This document shows positions 38,101-43,599 of a DNA stretch of 64,000 nt, one piece after another. The first letter of the stretch is position 1. Each line of letters begins with the position of its first letter. The notes beneath the pieces are model-generated. The model was not told the DNA's origin. It made no database searches and saw nothing but the letters and a program-made list of their open reading frames with translations. Source of the stretch: Escherichia phage vB_EcoM_PHB05; sequence record NC_052652.1. One strand, written 5' to 3'. A program made the translations under genes and the position numbers.

Positions 38101-39051
38101 TTAGTCAAGGTTTTTGGTAATACGTGTACAACCATCAGAAGTCAAACCGTCAACTTGAGTTTCCCAAGTACCATGAATATTTCGGAACAATGTTGTTACA
38201 CCTTTTGGTTCATTAATAATGATTGCCATAACAAGTTTAGGATCGATAACAGACATAATCTTTTCCTCAATACCCTCTGTAATAACATTATTGCGCACAA
38301 TATTAATTGCATCTTCTTGTACAGTAAGAACACTTACGTTCTTAAGAGTATATACCTGCTGTGTAGTGTAAATGATACGAACATAACTTACAGAACGAGT
38401 AGGCACAGGTTTACGCGGTCGGCGAAAACGTGGTTTTGGTGAAGATTCAGTTTTACTTTCATCTTTTGAATAATACTCCTCAAACAGTTTAGTAAATGTT
38501 TTTACATCAACTACAAACCGATCTTTCCGATATGGAGAATTCTTATGTGCACCATTAATACCACTGTTTTCATCGAAGAAAGTAATGTTTTCTTCAGTTG
38601 AATACATTAGATAATGATCTGCATTTTTCCAATGTGGTTGTGGACAACGAGGATTACAAACGGAAAGCAGATAACTAATATCTTCTTCCGTGGCATCAGT
38701 ATCCAGGAAACACGTATTATGCACAGTCAGTTGTACTTTTTCAGCCATATCTTTTTCTTTATCCTCTTTAGCAAGATATTCAGTACGAATAATCTCCAGA
38801 AAATTTTCAGGTGTTACTTCCATAAATGTATATTCAGGATGAAGTTCCATATATTCAAATCCACAACCATCTAACTGCTGTAGAAAGTTAGGGTAGAAGA
38901 ACAAATCATTAACACTGTGAATCAGATCATTGATTTCTGCTTCAGTTGTGTAACCAAAACTCTTGTGAATTGCTTCGTTAAGAATATGCAGGATACCCAT
39001 CTCTTCTGCTGCTTTTTTAACTTCCAGTTTATTAGCGTAAAATGCAATCAT
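38101..39051 (-). CDS. Hypothetical protein, 316 aa
   Basis: Track ORF; no motif recognised. Confidence 0.4.
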   Translation of the reverse strand: MIAFYANKLEVKKAAEEMGILHILNEAIHKSFGYTTEAEINDLIHSVNDLFFYPNFLQQLDGCGFEYMELHPEYTFMEVTPENFLEIIRTEYLAKEDKEKDMAEKVQLTVHNTCFLDTDATEEDISYLLSVCNPRCPQPHWKNADHYLMYSTEENITFFDENSGINGAHKNSPYRKDRFVVDVKTFTKLFEEYYSKDESKTESSPKPRFRRPRKPVPTRSVSYVRIIYTTQQVYTLKNVSVLTVQEDAINIVRNNVITEGIEEKIMSVIDPKLVMAIIINEPKGVTTLFRNIHGTWETQVDGLTSDGCTRITKNLD

Positions 39052-39068: not shown

Positions 39069-39503
39069 TTAGTTTAAAATTTCTTTTGCAATGGTAGAAG
39101 CAAGTTTTCCATCATATTGATTCGGATACTCTGCTTTAAGGTGTTTCATCATATCTGGCATTTTCTTGCCTGTCAAGGCAAATTCTTCAGCAATAGCGCG
39201 AAGATCATCTTCAGATAGCATTTCTGGTAAATATTTTTCAAGAGTGGTGATATCACGCATAGCTCGCTCACATTTGCTAATAGAGGCATTAACTTTCTTA
39301 AGCGAGTCTAGTTCCTCTTTAGCGTGTGCAATACCAATCTTAACAATGTTAATCATAATATCGTCTTCTGATTTGTTTAGATTTGCCTTTTGAGTACGAG
39401 CAAGGTCAAACTCACCAATAATATTAGTTAACAAAGCAAAAGCACCCTTATCGGTTGTACGTGCTAAGATACGATCTGCTTTCATTTGTGTCACAATAGA
39501 CAT
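39069..39503 (-). CDS. GatB/YqeY-domain protein, 144 aa
   Basis: C-terminal block LEKYLPEMLSEDDLRAIAEEFALTGKK...DGKLASTIAKEILN matches the YqeY family pattern (EEYLP..LSEEE...GK.V...VK..L). Confidence 0.5.
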   Translation of the reverse strand: MSIVTQMKADRILARTTDKGAFALLTNIIGEFDLARTQKANLNKSEDDIMINIVKIGIAHAKEELDSLKKVNASISKCERAMRDITTLEKYLPEMLSEDDLRAIAEEFALTGKKMPDMMKHLKAEYPNQYDGKLASTIAKEILN

Positions 39504-39515
39504 TCTATTCTCCTT

Positions 39516-40088
39516 TTATTTGCTAATGCTTTGAATGTTATTTACAACACGGTTTATTGCCAGTGAAGCCCTAGGCTCTGCAATACCTGTTGCATAGATA
39601 TAAGGATGACCTCTTGGAGACTCCCTCATACCGAATGAACCTAATTCTAAACCATATTCATCCTCTACGTCAACCCCAATATTAGTGGGTACTAAATATG
39701 TTTTAACTCCATAGTAAGTAGAGAAGAAACAGCGCATAGCGTTAGCATACTCTTCAATTGTAGCATCAGGGTAGAACTCAATCAACTCCAATTTCAAGAA
39801 AATATTAAAATGGGTATCATCTAAATTTTCTTCTGTACGGTAACATGGCGTTAGTGCCATATACGGATTACCTGCTGCAAATTCAAAACCATCCTTCTCC
39901 ATTTGCAGGAAAGATTGTTCTGCACTAGCTACATAGTATTTACCGTTAGGATGCCCTAATGGGCGATCCTCTTTATTTTCTGGTAGTGTGTACGCCAGTA
40001 TATCAGCATCCACGAGATATGGAACTTCCAACATTTGTGCAAACCGACCATAGTAATCAATAGCTTGAGCTATTACTGCAACATTCAT
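39516..40088 (-). CDS. Class II aminoacyl-tRNA-synthetase-like catalytic core (stand-alone amino-acid ligase-like), 190 aa
   Basis: Motif-2-like CYRTEE...THFNIFLKLEL and motif-3-like GMRESPRGHPYIYATGIAEPR; no anticodon-binding domain. Confidence 0.4.
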   Translation of the reverse strand: MNVAVIAQAIDYYGRFAQMLEVPYLVDADILAYTLPENKEDRPLGHPNGKYYVASAEQSFLQMEKDGFEFAAGNPYMALTPCYRTEENLDDTHFNIFLKLELIEFYPDATIEEYANAMRCFFSTYYGVKTYLVPTNIGVDVEDEYGLELGSFGMRESPRGHPYIYATGIAEPRASLAINRVVNNIQSISK

Positions 40089-40336
40089 GATCGACCTCCA
40101 TTGCGGAATGCACGTTTAGTAATGTTTGACATAGTGATCAAATCTTGAAGCGTCATATCAGGAAAATGCTGTTCAAGAACACCTTCAACAGCGCCTACAA
40201 TATCTGATAACTCAATAAGTTGCATCAGCTTGCAATCTTGATCAATAGCATCCTGAAGTTCATAAAGCTCTTCTTGAATCTTAGCAACAGAACCATAGTC
40301 CTCTTTGCTAATCTCCTTCAAATGATACCCTGCCAC
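40085..40336 (-). CDS. MazG/HisE-like all-alpha nucleotide pyrophosphohydrolase, 83 aa
   Basis: Acidic helices IQEELYELQDAI and IELSDIVGAVEGVL resemble the E-x2-E...E-x2-D metal-binding pattern of MazG-like NTP-PPases. Confidence 0.4.
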   Translation of the reverse strand: MAGYHLKEISKEDYGSVAKIQEELYELQDAIDQDCKLMQLIELSDIVGAVEGVLEQHFPDMTLQDLITMSNITKRAFRNGGRS

Positions 40337-40346
40337 TTTAACCCCC

Positions 40347-43121
40347 TTAGTTTACCAGTTTATTTATATCTGGTAAAAGATTTATTTCACCTAAGAAATC
40401 ACCTTCACCTTCCTCTAGCCAACTCTCATATGCTTGTGCATGATTATAGTTACCATCAAAAGAATCTGCAACAAATTTTTCTACAGTTTTTCGAGATGTG
40501 CCAGCGCCAAATACACCAAGTTTAATACCATTGATCGGTAAAGTGGTGCTTGTGGGTACTTTCTCTGTTGCAACACGGTTGATATCTATAATCTCCTGTA
40601 CGGTTGTATTCCATTGTAAGCATTTAACACAACGGGTGTGCGCTACATACAGTAGGTTTCGCTCTGCCTCTTCTAGTCCTACCCATTCACCAGTCTTTTT
40701 ATCATAGTTGGAAGGAAAATCATTAGCAACAATAACCTGATCCCACTCCAAACCTTTAGACTTATGTGCTGTAGTCAGTGTGACTTTTGCTGTAGGAGAA
40801 TTTCTATGCGTTCTAAGTGTATGTGCTATAGTGTTTGCCTTACCAGAAACTACAATGTTTAACAAGCGTTTAGCATCTGGATCAGCCTCTGCACACTCAA
40901 CAAATTCATTCCAGTCTGCGTAAGGTAATACAGTTTCATGTTTTACTTTCTCAATATCTCCTCTCCGAAGAGCATTAACACTATCTACCATAGAGATAAA
41001 ATCCCTGGTATCTACGTTAATAATAATTTCTTCCCCATCTGCAATACGATCCATTGCCTCCATAAGCAAGGTTAAATTCTTGCGAAAGATGATAGTGTAA
41101 GGTTTTGTATAGTCTACAACATCTGATTTGTAGCTACCTACTACAGTATCAAAGCCTTTACCAACCAAAGGATGACGCAAAGGTTCTTTATCACTTAAAA
41201 TCATATTCGCAATGTTTGCCACTTTGGGGCCAAAACGGAAGCAAGCAGTTAATGGAAGCTCTGCCCCATACTTAGCTGTTTCAATCATCATATTAGAGCT
41301 ACCTCTAAATTGATAAATGCAGTTATGGCTAAGAATTTCATTGCCAAAGAAGTTAGCAGTATCCTCTACTTCAATATCATAATAGATACCATCACTATCT
41401 ACAATGTCCACAATTTCTTCTGCCGTTACAGTATCACCATCTTTTACCAACACAGACATGCCTTTAAACAAACCCGCTGCCGGAATTAAATTATATTTGG
41501 CAGTGTTCACAGAGGACATGCATTCTTTTAAAGATGCAAACGGAACTATTTCAAGGATCTTTTGTGCAAAACTCAATGCTTCACGATAAGAATTGAAATA
41601 TTTACGTACACGGTAACGACCTTCCAATTTAGCAACACTTACACTTACACCTGCTTCAATGAGTGAAGCATAGATTGGCATTTCACTTTCTGTCCACTCA
41701 AAGCTAACTTGTGTTCCTTTACAACCTTGTGCTCGCAAAGTCACTGTTAACATTTTTCTTGCATCTACTGTACAATTGATGCTGTGCCAATGTGGATAAG
41801 CAAAATGATAATCTTTATCCTCTAAAAGTTTAAAACCATTTTGTCCGAATTGTTCAAAGATATTGTTGATCCTTTCTTGATTAATACCGCGTGAACTTGC
41901 CTCAAATACACAAGTAGGAATGCCATATTGTAAACTGTATGCCATTTCTTTTTCCATAGCAGCTTCACGGTTTTCAACAATATCCAACACCCACAACTTC
42001 TGTGCTTTTTCAGAACGTGTACGTTGCCCCAGTTTAGAAAAACCTTCTTTATCATCGAATTTGTTAGTGATCCCTACTCGGAAACCTAAATCTTTTCTCC
42101 ACATTAGGTATACCACCATCTGATCATCTTTCAGAACATAAGGTGAAGCCCAAATACGATGGTTATGTGTCATATCTAAAGTCTTACCTTTAGCAGTAAT
42201 AATATTCCTACCTTTTGTACGTGTAGATAAAGTTTTATTTGTTACTTTTCTAAATGTAACTTTACCGTTAGAATAAGACTCTACCTTATCACCGATTTGC
42301 AGGTCTTTCATTGTAACCTGACCATTTTCGGTATTAAGTACCGTGTTTTCTGACACACATTGGAATTCATCACCAACTACCACAATTTGTTTGGCAGATT
42401 TAGCATTCCGCAGAATAGACAAGAATGCAGGGTTAACATCCTGGAATTCATCCCCAAAAATAATGTCATAACCAAGATCAGCACCAGACAATTCAAACAA
42501 TTTTACATAGGTGTCATGCGTCATCAAAGTATCTGTGTTAGGGTCAATGCGCTCTCGCCACAATTGTTTTGCATACTTAACTACTTCTGTAATTAGTTTG
42601 TGTTCGTTAATACCTTTTCTTTTAATATCTGCAAGATGTACACTAGGAAAATGTTTACGGCTGATAAAAGGATCATCCGAAAATTCAAACTTACCTACGG
42701 TTTGCTTGATCATTAAACCAATCATAGCACGAGTTAAAAGTGTTTTCCCTCGTTTATCAATAAGATTATTAATCTTAAATTTCTTTGCTATCTCACTACC
42801 TGTACCTGCAACGTTAACATACTGTCCTTCTGGTCGTGACAGTTTTGCACGTAAACGATGATCCAGGAATTGATAGCAAATGGAATGCAATGTACGGCAT
42901 TCTACATTTGGTGGCATCTTACGCCGTGCTTCTTCTGCCATGCTTTTATTGAAAGCTAAGTAAAGAATGCGATCTTCTGTACTGTTAGCCAGCAAATAAA
43001 GTGTTGACGTTTTTCCTGATCCAGATTTAGCTTGGATAGTTAAAAACCGATGATCTGGAAAAGCCTCCTTAATAGCTGTTTGCTCTTCTGTTGGAGTAAA
43101 ACTCAACTCTTTCTTAGCCAT
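40347..43121 (-). CDS. UvrD/PcrA-like SF1 DNA helicase precursor containing an intein in motif III, 924 aa from Met-14
   Basis: Walker A AKSGSGKT, motif II IIFGDEFQD, motif III split as VVVGDEFQ | intein | CIYQFRGSS; start at internal ATG to avoid overlap. Confidence 0.75.
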   Translation of the reverse strand: MAKKELSFTPTEEQTAIKEAFPDHRFLTIQAKSGSGKTSTLYLLANSTEDRILYLAFNKSMAEEARRKMPPNVECRTLHSICYQFLDHRLRAKLSRPEGQYVNVAGTGSEIAKKFKINNLIDKRGKTLLTRAMIGLMIKQTVGKFEFSDDPFISRKHFPSVHLADIKRKGINEHKLITEVVKYAKQLWRERIDPNTDTLMTHDTYVKLFELSGADLGYDIIFGDEFQDVNPAFLSILRNAKSAKQIVVVGDEFQCVSENTVLNTENGQVTMKDLQIGDKVESYSNGKVTFRKVTNKTLSTRTKGRNIITAKGKTLDMTHNHRIWASPYVLKDDQMVVYLMWRKDLGFRVGITNKFDDKEGFSKLGQRTRSEKAQKLWVLDIVENREAAMEKEMAYSLQYGIPTCVFEASSRGINQERINNIFEQFGQNGFKLLEDKDYHFAYPHWHSINCTVDARKMLTVTLRAQGCKGTQVSFEWTESEMPIYASLIEAGVSVSVAKLEGRYRVRKYFNSYREALSFAQKILEIVPFASLKECMSSVNTAKYNLIPAAGLFKGMSVLVKDGDTVTAEEIVDIVDSDGIYYDIEVEDTANFFGNEILSHNCIYQFRGSSNMMIETAKYGAELPLTACFRFGPKVANIANMILSDKEPLRHPLVGKGFDTVVGSYKSDVVDYTKPYTIIFRKNLTLLMEAMDRIADGEEIIINVDTRDFISMVDSVNALRRGDIEKVKHETVLPYADWNEFVECAEADPDAKRLLNIVVSGKANTIAHTLRTHRNSPTAKVTLTTAHKSKGLEWDQVIVANDFPSNYDKKTGEWVGLEEAERNLLYVAHTRCVKCLQWNTTVQEIIDINRVATEKVPTSTTLPINGIKLGVFGAGTSRKTVEKFVADSFDGNYNHAQAYESWLEEGEGDFLGEINLLPDINKLVN
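41322..42359 (-). mobile_element. Intein (about 346 aa) inserted in helicase motif III, with probable endonuclease-sized insert
   Basis: Begins with Cys (CVSENTVL), block B MTHNHRI, C-terminal block GIYYDIEVEDTANFFGNEILSHN followed by +1 Cys; flanking exteins rejoin into a canonical motif III. Confidence 0.7.
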
Positions 43122-43122
43122 T

Positions 43123-43599
43123 TCAACCTCTCTTAATTTGTTTAACAAGCATAGGAACAAAATCTCGTTTTAAAATTTGTTCAATAATATGATCAGGTAG
43201 CTGTTGGAAATTATAATTAAACGCTACTGTCTCACCTTTAGGTGTTTCTACCCGCACATATAGCATGTTACGAAGTTTATCCACTTGTGCTGTATATTCT
43301 AAACCACGTAATTGATGCATTGCAAACATCAAATCCTCAGTTTCAGTTTGGAATCTATCCCTTGTTTGCATCAAGGATAAGGCAAAAGGTAGATTTTCCC
43401 TAAGAGCCACCTTCTTAGGCACTAGTGAAGGGAAATACTCCCCAATAACTTCCTGTGTAAGCTGAATACACTCTTTTTCAAGCTGGTTTTGTTCCTTGAG
43501 TTCACAAACACTTTTTTGTAAAGTGTTAACCTCTTTTTGCAAAGCTGCTAGTTGAGCACTTAACTTTCTTTTTTGATTACGACCGAAACGTTTAGACAT
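43123..43599 (-). CDS. Hypothetical protein, 158 aa
   Basis: Track ORF; coiled-coil N-terminus. Confidence 0.4.
   Translation of the reverse strand: MSKRFGRNQKRKLSAQLAALQKEVNTLQKSVCELKEQNQLEKECIQLTQEVIGEYFPSLVPKKVALRENLPFALSLMQTRDRFQTETEDLMFAMHQLRGLEYTAQVDKLRNMLYVRVETPKGETVAFNYNFQQLPDHIIEQILKRDFVPMLVKQIKRG

What the first reader, a model, noticed from the sequence alone, without database searches (positions are those of the whole stretch)
39069..40336. YqeY-domain protein, minimal class II aaRS-like ligase core and MazG-like pyrophosphatase in a row
Three co-directional genes encode a GatB/YqeY domain, a 190-aa protein with class II aminoacyl-tRNA-synthetase motif-2 and motif-3-like blocks but no anticodon-binding domain, and an 83-aa MazG/HisE-like pyrophosphohydrolase. 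A stand-alone class II core can act as an amino-acid:carrier ligase, and the neighbouring YqeY domain is associated with tRNA or aminoacylation. Located between nrdD and the helicase, the trio may form a small-molecule or tRNA-modifying pathway not described for phages.
Basis: inference. Interest (0 to 1): 0.5.

Follow-up and report, generated by a model that had tools for sequence, protein, structure and literature searches.

The report
Phage mini-SerRS core with MazG-like partner
A phi92-like E. coli phage encodes a 190-residue stripped-down seryl-tRNA-synthetase catalytic core that almost always travels with, and is sometimes fused to, an 83-residue MazG/HisE-like protein, forming a widespread virus-only two-part enzyme whose function has not been tested; the neighbouring YqeY gene is only a lineage-specific addition.

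Summary

The main new result is that the conserved unit is a pair, not a trio. In 83 of 86 loci the MazG-like domain is adjacent on the same strand or fused to the core. YqeY accompanies it only in the phi92 group, six Klebsiella phages and two metagenomic loci. The family is large (about 1,600 clusters at 50% identity; 271 isolated phages) and essentially virus-restricted.

The genes already carry inconsistent database names (seryl- or histidyl-tRNA synthetase, tRNA amidotransferase). I found no functional study.

Most likely it is a two-subunit serine-adenylating enzyme acting on a tRNA end or a nucleotide. The acceptor is unknown. Verdict: real, moderately interesting, a new variant of a known kind.

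The parts
40085..40336 (-). 83-aa MazG/HisE-like all-alpha NTP-pyrophosphohydrolase-type subunit; the conserved partner of the core
40202..40273 (-). Metal-binding signature E22-E23-x-x-E26-x-x-D29 ... E42-x-x-D45 of the 83-aa protein
   Evidence: Invariant or nearly so in 107 unique sequences. HMMER aligns it onto the EExxE/ExxD helices of HisE and SSO3215. The spacing equals that of the Mg site of M. tuberculosis MazG, E119/E122/E138/D141 (PMC10014863).
40085..40088 (-). ATGA stop/start overlap between the 83-aa gene and the core gene, suggesting translational coupling
   Evidence: Read directly. Overlaps of -1 or -4 nt recur in most related loci.
39516..40088 (-). 190-aa minimal class II aaRS catalytic core, derived from SerRS
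   Evidence: The family has 1,601 representatives at 50% identity.
39918..39926 (-). S55-A-E57, aligned with the T237-A-E239 (TxE) block of E. coli SerRS
   Evidence: HMMER and hhalign alignments. S55 and E57 are invariant in 265 of 265 sequences.
39786..39851 (-). Motif 2 (T80-P-C-Y-R84-T-E86 ... F97-L-K99-L-E101) with a shortened loop
   Evidence: Aligns with E. coli SerRS TPCFRSE...FDKVE. R84, F97, K99 and E101 are invariant. There are 11-12 residues between the Arg and the Phe, against 18 in E. coli SerRS.
39570..39593 (-). Motif 3 (A166-T167-G-I-A-E-P-R173)
   Evidence: Aligns with E. coli SerRS G-S391-G-L-A-V-G-R397. T167 and R173 are conserved in 264 of 265 sequences.
39069..39503 (-). 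144-aa stand-alone YqeY (GatB C-terminal-like) protein; a lineage-specific neighbour rather than part of the conserved pair
   Evidence: Pfam YqeY above the cut-off; phrog_1460; 1ng6 at E 1e-4. Co-occurrence is limited to the phi92 group, six Klebsiella phages, L005 and L057.

Best explanation
The 83-aa and 190-aa genes encode the two subunits of a virus-specific adenylate-forming enzyme. The 190-aa subunit is a SerRS catalytic domain reduced to its bare class II core. It most likely binds ATP and L-serine (or a very similar small amino acid) and forms an aminoacyl-adenylate. The 83-aa subunit is a truncated MazG/HisE-type helical module with an intact four-carboxylate Mg2+/nucleotide-phosphate site. 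It works in complex with the core. It either binds the nucleotide part of the acceptor or second substrate, or hydrolyses a nucleotide product.

The acceptor I consider most likely is the 3' end of a tRNA. In that case this would be a trans-assembled, arm-less seryl-tRNA-synthetase-like enzyme. In phi92-like phages the adjacent YqeY protein would then act as an extra tRNA-affinity factor.

Shown here: the folds, the homology, the invariant catalytic residues, the pairing and fusion, and the restriction to viruses. Inferred: complex formation, serine as substrate, tRNA as acceptor, and the role of YqeY.

For: Shared signatures with SerRS: VPYLV (identical), SAE/TAE, TPC[YF]R.E, F.K.E and G[TS]G[IL]A..R.

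Catalytic residues are invariant in 265 unique homologs that go down to about 30% identity: S55, E57, R84, F97, K99, E101, E148, S151, T167 and R173. R84, E86 and R173 correspond to the class II 'arginine tweezers' plus the conserved acidic residue that grip the adenylate (PMC5919687).

Partnership: the MazG-like domain is adjacent on the same strand or fused in 83 of 86 loci, and gene order occurs both ways. 6 loci and 9 of 194 database proteins are fusions, with 36-54% identity to the window's 83-aa protein. An ATGA overlap links the two genes in the window.

MazG-like site: E22, E23, E26, D29, E42 and D45 are invariant or nearly so.

Link to tRNA: 10 of 77 non-redundant loci have a tRNA gene within 1.5 kb, and 6 are flanked on both sides within 3 kb. 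Recurrent neighbours are RlaP in 9 of 78 loci and a CCA-adding enzyme in 5, and PTH2 sits directly upstream in L073. In Deinococcus GlnRS the YqeY domain raises affinity for tRNA (PMC1865053).

From established knowledge: SerRS does not read the anticodon, so the lack of an anticodon-binding domain is less of an obstacle than it would be for most aaRSs.
Against: No biochemistry exists. The SerRS coiled-coil arm that binds the long variable arm of tRNASer is absent. The motif-2 loop, which contacts the acceptor stem in SerRS, is 6-7 residues shorter. Both subunits are acidic (window pI 4.5 and 4.6).

Ordinary tRNA charging needs no NTP-pyrophosphohydrolase-type site, so the partner's conserved carboxylates are not explained by this model. 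In Deinococcus, YqeY acted only in cis, and most phages with the pair have no YqeY. The window has no tRNA gene in 64 kb. I could not compute a background rate for tRNA proximity, so that enrichment is only a rough estimate.

The equivalence of E148/S151 with the SerRS E-x-x-S metal ligands rests on spacing and strand order. hhalign places E148 on a different Glu. The roles I assign to the SerRS serine-binding residues come from my recollection of the T. thermophilus structures, not from a paper I could read here.
Confidence: 0.45

Rival explanations
1. The pair makes or processes a small nucleotide compound rather than charging tRNA. The core forms seryl-AMP. The activated group then goes to a nucleotide held by the MazG-like subunit, giving an aminoacyl-nucleotide, or to an NTP, giving an Ap4N-type dinucleoside polyphosphate. 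Alternatively the MazG-like subunit hydrolyses such a product. The result would be a metabolite, a signal or a counter-defence molecule.
Against: No conserved third gene, such as a carrier protein, transferase or exporter, accompanies the pair. Neighbouring tRNA arrays and RNA-repair genes point to RNA instead. No product of this type is known from phages. There is no match to known defence or counter-defence models.
Confidence: 0.3
2. The core is a regulatory pseudo-synthetase, comparable to HisZ, SLIMP or the Pol gamma accessory subunit. It senses an amino acid or ATP and controls the MazG-like subunit. That subunit would be a house-cleaning or dNTP-pool pyrophosphatase serving DNA replication, since in the window it lies beside nrdD, nrdG and a helicase.
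Against: Known pseudo-synthetases have lost their catalytic residues. SLIMP, for example, lost the adenylate-binding positions (PMC10570016). Here every catalytic position is invariant across 265 sequences, which argues for chemistry rather than binding alone. The nucleotide-metabolism context is not conserved outside the phi92 and rV5-like lineages. The sequence signatures are those of SerRS, not HisRS or HisZ.
Confidence: 0.12
3. The database labels are literally right. The 190-aa protein would be an ordinary seryl- or histidyl-tRNA synthetase, and YqeY a tRNA amidotransferase, which simply top up host translation.
For: GenBank and PHROG annotations, and real homology to the SerRS catalytic domain.
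Against: The protein covers only E. coli SerRS residues 167-414, in shortened form, and lacks the tRNA-binding arm. No HisRS appears among the 35 profile hits to the PDB, and there is no anticodon-binding domain. The 144-aa YqeY protein contains only the YqeY domain and none of the GatB catalytic region. The labels contradict each other (seryl, histidyl, aspartyl/glutamyl).
Confidence: 0.05

Closest known systems
Bacterial-type seryl-tRNA synthetase (SerRS) catalytic domain
   Different: The phage protein has 190 residues against about 264 for the same region of E. coli SerRS (430 in total). It has no N-terminal coiled-coil tRNA-binding arm. Its motif-2 loop is 6-7 residues shorter and the hairpins between motifs 2 and 3 are trimmed. 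It has an obligate MazG-like partner that SerRS does not have.
Amino acid:[carrier protein] ligases (Bll0957/Atu2573 type; truncated SerRS homologs, PDB 3mey)
   Different: From established knowledge, those enzymes are about 300 aa, derive from the methanogen-type zinc-dependent SerRS, and sit next to a carrier-protein gene. The phage core matches bacterial-type SerRS best. It has no conserved carrier-protein neighbour and pairs with a MazG-like protein instead.
HisZ (HisRS paralog, regulatory subunit of ATP phosphoribosyltransferase) together with HisE
   Same: This is a class II core without an anticodon-binding domain that works as a subunit of a hetero-complex. HisE is the nearest solved relative of the 83-aa partner.
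   Different: HisZ is catalytically inactive and partners with HisG, not HisE. The phage core keeps all its catalytic residues and has SerRS signatures, not HisRS ones. No HisG homolog was found among the recurring neighbour families.
EpmA/PoxA (GenX) and AsnA: class II cores that act on a protein or on ammonia
   Different: They derive from LysRS and AspRS/AsnRS, are about 300-330 aa, and have different partners.
MazG / HisE / dimeric dUTPase all-alpha NTP pyrophosphohydrolases
   Same: The helical fold and the ExxE...ExxD four-carboxylate metal site are shared, with the same spacing as in M. tuberculosis MazG.
   Different: The phage protein has only three helices in 83 residues and falls below the Pfam cut-off. 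It has extra invariant residues (Y4, H5, K19, T73, F77, G80, R82) not accounted for by the MazG signature. It is bound genetically to an aaRS-like core.
YqeY domain of Deinococcus radiodurans GlnRS, and the GatB tail domain
   Same: A YqeY module associated with an aminoacylation enzyme, which there raises tRNA affinity (PMC1865053).
   Different: There it is fused to the synthetase and works only in cis. Here it is a separate gene, present in only about a fifth of the phages that carry the pair.

Membership tests
Class II aminoacyl-tRNA synthetase catalytic-domain superfamily (190-aa protein) | Antiparallel beta-sheet catalytic fold flanked by helices | tested here: met
Class II aminoacyl-tRNA synthetase catalytic-domain superfamily (190-aa protein) | Motif 1 with its conserved proline | tested here: met
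   VPYLV 22-26 is identical to E. coli SerRS 195-199. P23 is present in 252 of 265 sequences.
Class II aminoacyl-tRNA synthetase catalytic-domain superfamily (190-aa protein) | Motif 2 Arg (with an acidic residue at +2) and motif 3 Arg, the 'arginine tweezers' that bind the adenylate | tested here: met
   R84 in 265 of 265, E86 as E or D in 249 of 265, and R173 in 264 of 265. Definition taken from PMC5919687.
Bona fide seryl-tRNA synthetase | SerRS-type catalytic signatures (TxE, TPCFRxE, FxKxE, ExxS, G[ST]GxAxxR) | tested here: met
   The ExxS equivalence (E148/S151) is inferred from spacing, because hhalign is ambiguous at that point.
Bona fide seryl-tRNA synthetase | N-terminal coiled-coil arm that binds the tRNASer variable arm | tested here: not met
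   The protein begins about 20 residues before motif 1 and aligns only with E. coli SerRS 167-414. The median family length is 190 aa.
Bona fide seryl-tRNA synthetase | Full-length motif-2 loop that contacts the acceptor stem | tested here: not met
   11-12 residues lie between the motif-2 Arg and Phe in 256 of 265 sequences, against 18 in E. coli SerRS.
Bona fide seryl-tRNA synthetase | Serine activation and serylation of tRNASer | not testable with these tools
   Needs ATP-PPi exchange and aminoacylation assays.
Histidyl-tRNA synthetase / HisZ (PHROG label for phrog_4806) | Sequence membership in the HisRS family, and an anticodon-binding domain in the case of HisRS | tested here: not met
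Amino acid:[carrier protein] ligase | Adjacent carrier-protein gene that serves as the acceptor | tested here: not met
   Clustering of neighbours in 78 loci found no conserved family other than the MazG-like partner.
All-alpha NTP pyrophosphohydrolase superfamily, MazG/HisE/dimeric dUTPase (83-aa protein) | Helical-bundle fold of the superfamily | tested here: met
All-alpha NTP pyrophosphohydrolase superfamily, MazG/HisE/dimeric dUTPase (83-aa protein) | Four acidic metal ligands, ExxE ... ExxD | tested here: met
   E23, E26, E42 and D45 (plus E22 and D29) are conserved in 103-106 of 107 sequences. They align with the motif in HisE and SSO3215. The spacing equals that of M. tuberculosis MazG E119/E122/E138/D141.
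All-alpha NTP pyrophosphohydrolase superfamily, MazG/HisE/dimeric dUTPase (83-aa protein) | Score above the curated Pfam cut-off for PRA-PH or MazG | tested here: not met
   PRA-PH scores 14.9 bits against a cut-off of 21.3. The best family member reaches E 5e-4, and 15 of 22 members hit PRA-PH at E <= 1. This places it as a distant relative at superfamily level, not a member of either Pfam family.
All-alpha NTP pyrophosphohydrolase superfamily, MazG/HisE/dimeric dUTPase (83-aa protein) | NTP to NMP + PPi hydrolysis | not testable with these tools
   Needs an enzyme assay.
YqeY / GatB C-terminal domain family (144-aa protein) | Pfam PF09424 above the gathering score, and similarity to solved YqeY structures | tested here: met
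   30.3 bits against a cut-off of 27, covering profile positions 34-143 of 143. 1ng6 at E 1e-4 and 8xjg at E 0.01.
tRNA-dependent amidotransferase GatB (PHROG label 'tRNA amidotransferase') | GatB catalytic (cradle) domain | tested here: not met
   The 144-aa protein contains only the YqeY domain. No GatB catalytic-domain hit was found in Pfam or NCBIfam.

The most novel reading that the evidence does not exclude
The pair is a previously unrecognised, virus-only kind of aminoacylating enzyme. It would be the smallest natural class II synthetase core (about 180-190 aa, still carrying the complete SerRS active site), made functional by a MazG-fold subunit in place of the usual RNA-binding domains. 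It would either charge tRNAs, possibly phage-encoded or damaged ones, in a new trans-assembled way, or synthesise a seryl-nucleotide or dinucleoside-polyphosphate compound used by large phages during infection.
Probability: 0.25. Interest if true: 0.8.

Novelty: new variant of a known kind. Interest (0 to 1): 0.58.

Why it matters
Class II synthetase paralogs that lost their tRNA-binding domains have repeatedly turned out to perform unexpected chemistry, for example AsnA, EpmA, HisZ and the carrier-protein ligases. This family is large: about 1,600 clusters at 50% identity and 271 isolated phages, from E. coli to Acinetobacter, Caulobacter and Microcystis hosts. It is restricted to viruses and keeps every catalytic residue in only 190 residues. 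It is tied by gene fusion to a MazG-fold protein, a combination I found described in none of the literature I could search.

If it is active, it would be a natural minimal class II enzyme, relevant to the debate on how small a functional synthetase can be. It would also add a new phage function linked to translation or nucleotides.

On the practical side, the current database names are mutually inconsistent and not supported as they stand: 'histidyl tRNA synthetase', 'seryl-tRNA synthetase', 'tRNA amidotransferase' and 'aspartyl/glutamyl-tRNA synthetase'. They should be replaced by neutral, domain-based names.

Tried and rejected
- **Direct searches with the single 190-aa sequence.** The search against PDB sequences found only chance hits, and NCBIfam found nothing. 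Profiles were needed.
- **Literature.** Searches for phage + seryl-tRNA synthetase + YqeY, phi92 + tRNA synthetase, MazG + aaRS + jumbo phage, and 'putative seryl-tRNA synthetase' + phage found no study of this module. Cusack et al. 1996, which gives the SerRS residue roles, is not held. The roles of the serine-binding residues therefore rest on my own knowledge.
- **Fold libraries.** The AFDB fold library was not available.
- **Accessory domains.** The extra domains fused to some partners (an HDH-motif domain of about 190 aa, and C-terminal extensions) have no Pfam match.
- **Cellular homologs.** Only 4 hits were found in one genome for each of 185,579 species. All are on MAG contigs, with one search pattern used. 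A cellular origin or context could not be exploited.
- **Defence systems.** PADLOC gave no match.
- **The trio as one conserved pathway.** Rejected on co-occurrence.
- **HisZ/HisE-type origin.** Considered because of the PHROG label and the HisE hits. Rejected for the core because its sequence signatures are those of SerRS.
- **Modelling a fusion protein to see the interface.** Not attempted, because the structure tool returns no coordinates or contacts.
- **Middle of the hhalign alignment.** The region around E148 is ambiguous. I state both possible mappings.
Full report
**1. What is in the sequence.**

The window is a phi92-like E. coli myovirus (Justusliebigvirus, Stephanstirmvirinae). The 3-kb stretch around the finding is 98.4-99.2% identical to phi92, JohannJBalmer (Bas62) and the other listed records, 54 in all at 95% identity or more.

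- 40085-40336: 83 aa, GTG start preceded by AAGGGGG.
- 39516-40088: 190 aa.
- 39069-39503: 144 aa.

The stop of the 83-aa gene overlaps the start of the core gene (ATGA), with GGAGG just upstream. YqeY follows after 12 nt with its own AAGGAG site. Upstream is an intein-containing UvrD/Rep helicase. Downstream come a 316-aa ORF of unknown function, then nrdD and nrdG. The first terminator-like hairpin on this strand is at 38053-38031, after the 316-aa ORF (a consensus match only). The genes therefore look co-transcribed.

**2. The 190-aa protein is a minimal class II core derived from SerRS.**

The single sequence gives nothing significant in Pfam, NCBIfam or the PDB. PHROGs knows it as phrog_4806, labelled 'histidyl tRNA synthetase'.

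A 47-sequence alignment of homologs (A1) used as a profile hits Aquifex SerRS at E 2.2e-5, then AspRS, further SerRSs, PylRS and AsnRS. No HisRS is among the hits. hhalign against E. coli SerRS gives 89.6% probability at E 1.9e-6. When extended, the alignment spans SerRS residues 167-414, from motif 1 to motif 3.

Signature blocks shared with E. coli SerRS:

| Phage core | E. coli SerRS |
|---|---|
| VPYLV 22-26 | VPYLV 195-199 (identical) |
| S55-A-E57 | T237-A-E239 |
| T80-P-C-Y-R84-T-E86 | T264-P-C-F-R268-S-E270 |
| F97-L-K99-L-E101 | F287-D-K289-V-E291 |
| T167-G-I-A-E-P-R173 | S391-G-L-A-V-G-R397 |

E148-L-G-S151 has the same i/i+3 spacing as SerRS E355-I-S-S358, and it sits on the equivalent strand by order. 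hhalign instead places E148 on the Glu of the SerRS DLEVW block, so this one equivalence is an inference.

Across 265 unique family members, with identity down to about 30%, the following are invariant, allowing one gapped sequence: S55, E57, R84, F97, K99, E101, E148, S151, T167 and R173. C82, D140, P172 and Q58 are nearly invariant.

R84, E86 and R173 are the class II 'arginine tweezers' and the accompanying acidic residue that hold the adenylate (PMC5919687). From my own knowledge of the T. thermophilus SerRS complexes (Belrhali et al. 1994 and 1995), the counterparts of S55/E57, E101 and T167 bind the amino group and the hydroxyl of serine. I could not retrieve a paper to confirm the numbering, so I rate serine as the substrate as likely, not shown.

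What is missing:
- The whole N-terminal coiled-coil arm.
- 6-7 residues of the motif-2 loop: 11-12 residues between Arg and Phe, against 18 in SerRS.
- Most of the hairpins between motifs 2 and 3.

The median family length is 190 aa.

**3. The 83-aa protein is a truncated MazG/HisE-type module.**

Alone it scores below the Pfam cut-off (PRA-PH 14.9 bits against 21.3). The evidence still converges:
- A 22-sequence profile has HisE (2a7w, 1yvw) and the MazG-like SSO3215 (1vmg) as its three best PDB hits (E 0.06-0.3). The alignment falls on the metal-binding helices.
- 15 of 22 members hit PRA-PH and 4 hit MazG.
- The AF2 model (pLDDT 90.3) has three helices.
- The six best Foldseek hits are all HisE or MazG family structures, with probability up to 0.92.

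E22, E23, E26, D29 (D or E), E42 and D45 are conserved in 103-106 of 107 unique sequences. The E23/E26...E42/D45 spacing equals that of the Mg2+ site of M. tuberculosis MazG, E119/E122/E138/D141 (PMC10014863). Further invariant residues (Y4, H5, K19, T73, F77, G80, R82) are not explained by the MazG signature.

**4. The conserved unit is a pair, and it also exists as a fusion.**

An exhaustive profile search finds 1,601 representatives at 50% identity, 1,428 of them below E 1e-10. Most are 175-200 aa. Nine of the retrieved longer proteins (about 260-274 aa) carry a C-terminal domain that is 36-54% identical to the window's 83-aa protein.

I examined 86 loci: 80 from IMG/VR, plus the window, the GenBank record and four contigs found through distant homologs. 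The MazG-like domain is present in 83 of them, always on the same strand. It is usually directly upstream with a -1 or -4 nt overlap, directly downstream in 12 loci, and fused in 6. The three exceptions have no detectable partner within 1.5 kb even with HMMER's filters off.

Variable gene order combined with fusion is the classic signature of two subunits of one enzyme.

No third family is conserved. The most frequent further neighbours are an RlaP-type RNA-repair nucleotidyltransferase (9 of 78 loci) and a CCA-adding enzyme (5 of 78). A PTH2 peptidyl-tRNA hydrolase lies directly upstream of the core in L073.

**5. YqeY is real but lineage-specific.**

The 144-aa protein passes the Pfam YqeY cut-off and matches B. 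subtilis YqeY (1ng6, E 1e-4). Within 10 kb of the core it is found only in the phi92 group, L005 and L057.

Among isolated phages the core occurs in 271 genomes: Escherichia 110, Acinetobacter 61, Caulobacter 13, Pectobacterium 10, Cronobacter 8, Microcystis 8 and others. YqeY occurs in 116. Of these, 54 are phi92-like and 6 are Klebsiella phages. The remaining ones (Vibrio 44, Sinorhizobium 7, Pseudomonas 4 and a few others) belong to genera absent from the ten most frequent genera of the core list. I did not check those genomes individually.

The closest relatives with the pair, the Phapecoctavirus group at about 82% identity, have no YqeY nearby.

**6. Distribution.**

The family is virus-restricted as far as I can see. 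There are four hits in one genome for each of 185,579 bacterial and archaeal species. All are on metagenome-assembled contigs, and two of them are about 80% identical to the phage gene (one search pattern only). Many carriers are large or jumbo phages, with contigs of 140-578 kb.

**7. Clues to function.**

tRNA genes lie within 10 kb in 23 of 77 non-redundant loci and within 1.5 kb in 10. They flank the module on both sides within 3 kb in 6 loci, where the pair sits inside a tRNA array. I could not compute a genome-wide background. My rough estimate is a several-fold enrichment at short range, and I treat it as suggestive only. The window itself has no tRNA gene.

Both subunits are acidic, which is not unusual for synthetase cores. 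In Deinococcus GlnRS the YqeY domain raises tRNA affinity, but only in cis (PMC1865053).

**8. Interpretation.**

The strict invariance of the whole adenylate site argues for a catalytically active enzyme, in contrast to pseudo-synthetases such as SLIMP, which lost these residues (PMC10570016). I therefore favour a two-subunit adenylate-forming enzyme that activates serine.

The acceptor is open:
- tRNA is favoured by the neighbourhood and by YqeY. From general knowledge, SerRS also ignores the anticodon.
- tRNA is disfavoured by the missing arm, the short motif-2 loop and the unexplained catalytic-looking site of the partner.
- A nucleotide acceptor or product is the main rival, and it explains the partner better.
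- A HisZ-like regulatory role is less likely.
- The literal database names are not tenable, because defining features of SerRS, HisRS and GatB were tested and not met (see the membership table).

**9. Novelty and verdict.**

The genes are known to databases. One GenBank record already calls the pair 'seryl-tRNA synthetase | putative MazG-type nucleotide pyrophosphohydrolase-like fold'. The bare observation is therefore not new.

The following appear not to have been described, within the limits of the literature I could search:
- The near-obligate pairing and fusion.
- The SerRS-specific invariant active site in 190 residues.
- The restriction to viruses.
- The demotion of YqeY to a lineage-specific neighbour.

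I file it as a new variant of a known kind (a class II aaRS paralog with a new partner architecture), with interest 0.58.

Noticed in passing
window 40347-43160 (-), intein about 41319-42359: The UvrD/Rep-type helicase directly upstream of the trio is interrupted by an intein. The Basel-collection record MZ501084 annotates it this way, and I mapped its coordinates onto the window. A helicase of the same family recurs near the core in 4 loci.
   Followed up: partly
window 38101-39051 (-): A 316-aa ORF lies between YqeY and nrdD and appears to be in the same transcription unit. PHROG phrog_15930 labels it 'ribonucleotide reductase' (E 3e-185), but it has no Pfam, NCBIfam or PADLOC hit. The label looks unsupported.
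   Followed up: partly
L039 9070-10017, L047 8953-9858, L051 9163-9990, L052 10567-11436: In four jumbo-phage loci the MazG-like partner is fused to an unknown N-terminal domain of about 190 aa. It has a conserved H-D-H-containing motif, possibly a metal site, and no Pfam match. Other partners carry Zn-ribbon-like CxxC extensions (L041, L066) or C-terminal extensions of about 120 aa (L004, L025, L040).
   Followed up: partly
L073 9078-9521; 9 of 78 loci (e.g. L019 5241-6305); 5 of 78 loci (e.g. L016 4200-5516): RNA and tRNA-maintenance genes recur near the pair. PTH2 peptidyl-tRNA hydrolase sits directly upstream of the core in L073, one of the three loci without a MazG-like partner. RlaP nucleotidyltransferase and a CCA-adding enzyme also recur.
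   Followed up: partly
L039 354-441, L047 2967-3123, L050 3980-4053, L057 14956-15030: tRNA genes with a CUA (amber-suppressor type) anticodon, which ARAGORN calls 'tRNA-Pyl', lie within 10 kb of the module in four loci. I did not test whether this relates to stop-codon recoding.
   Followed up: no
GenBank MG065639, MG065645, MG065656, MG065689 (hits H15-H18): Records named 'Campylobacter phage' with host C. jejuni are 98.7% identical to this E. coli phage over the 3-kb query. The host assignment looks doubtful.
   Followed up: no
window 1-64000: GC skew is positive up to about 10 kb, negative from about 10 to 48 kb (where the trio lies), and positive again after about 48 kb. This is consistent with blocks of opposite transcription direction.
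   Followed up: no
window-related cluster, e.g. L008 6900-7268: A DUF4326 protein of about 122 aa recurs within 6 kb of the core in 7 loci, including the window. Its function is unknown.
   Followed up: no
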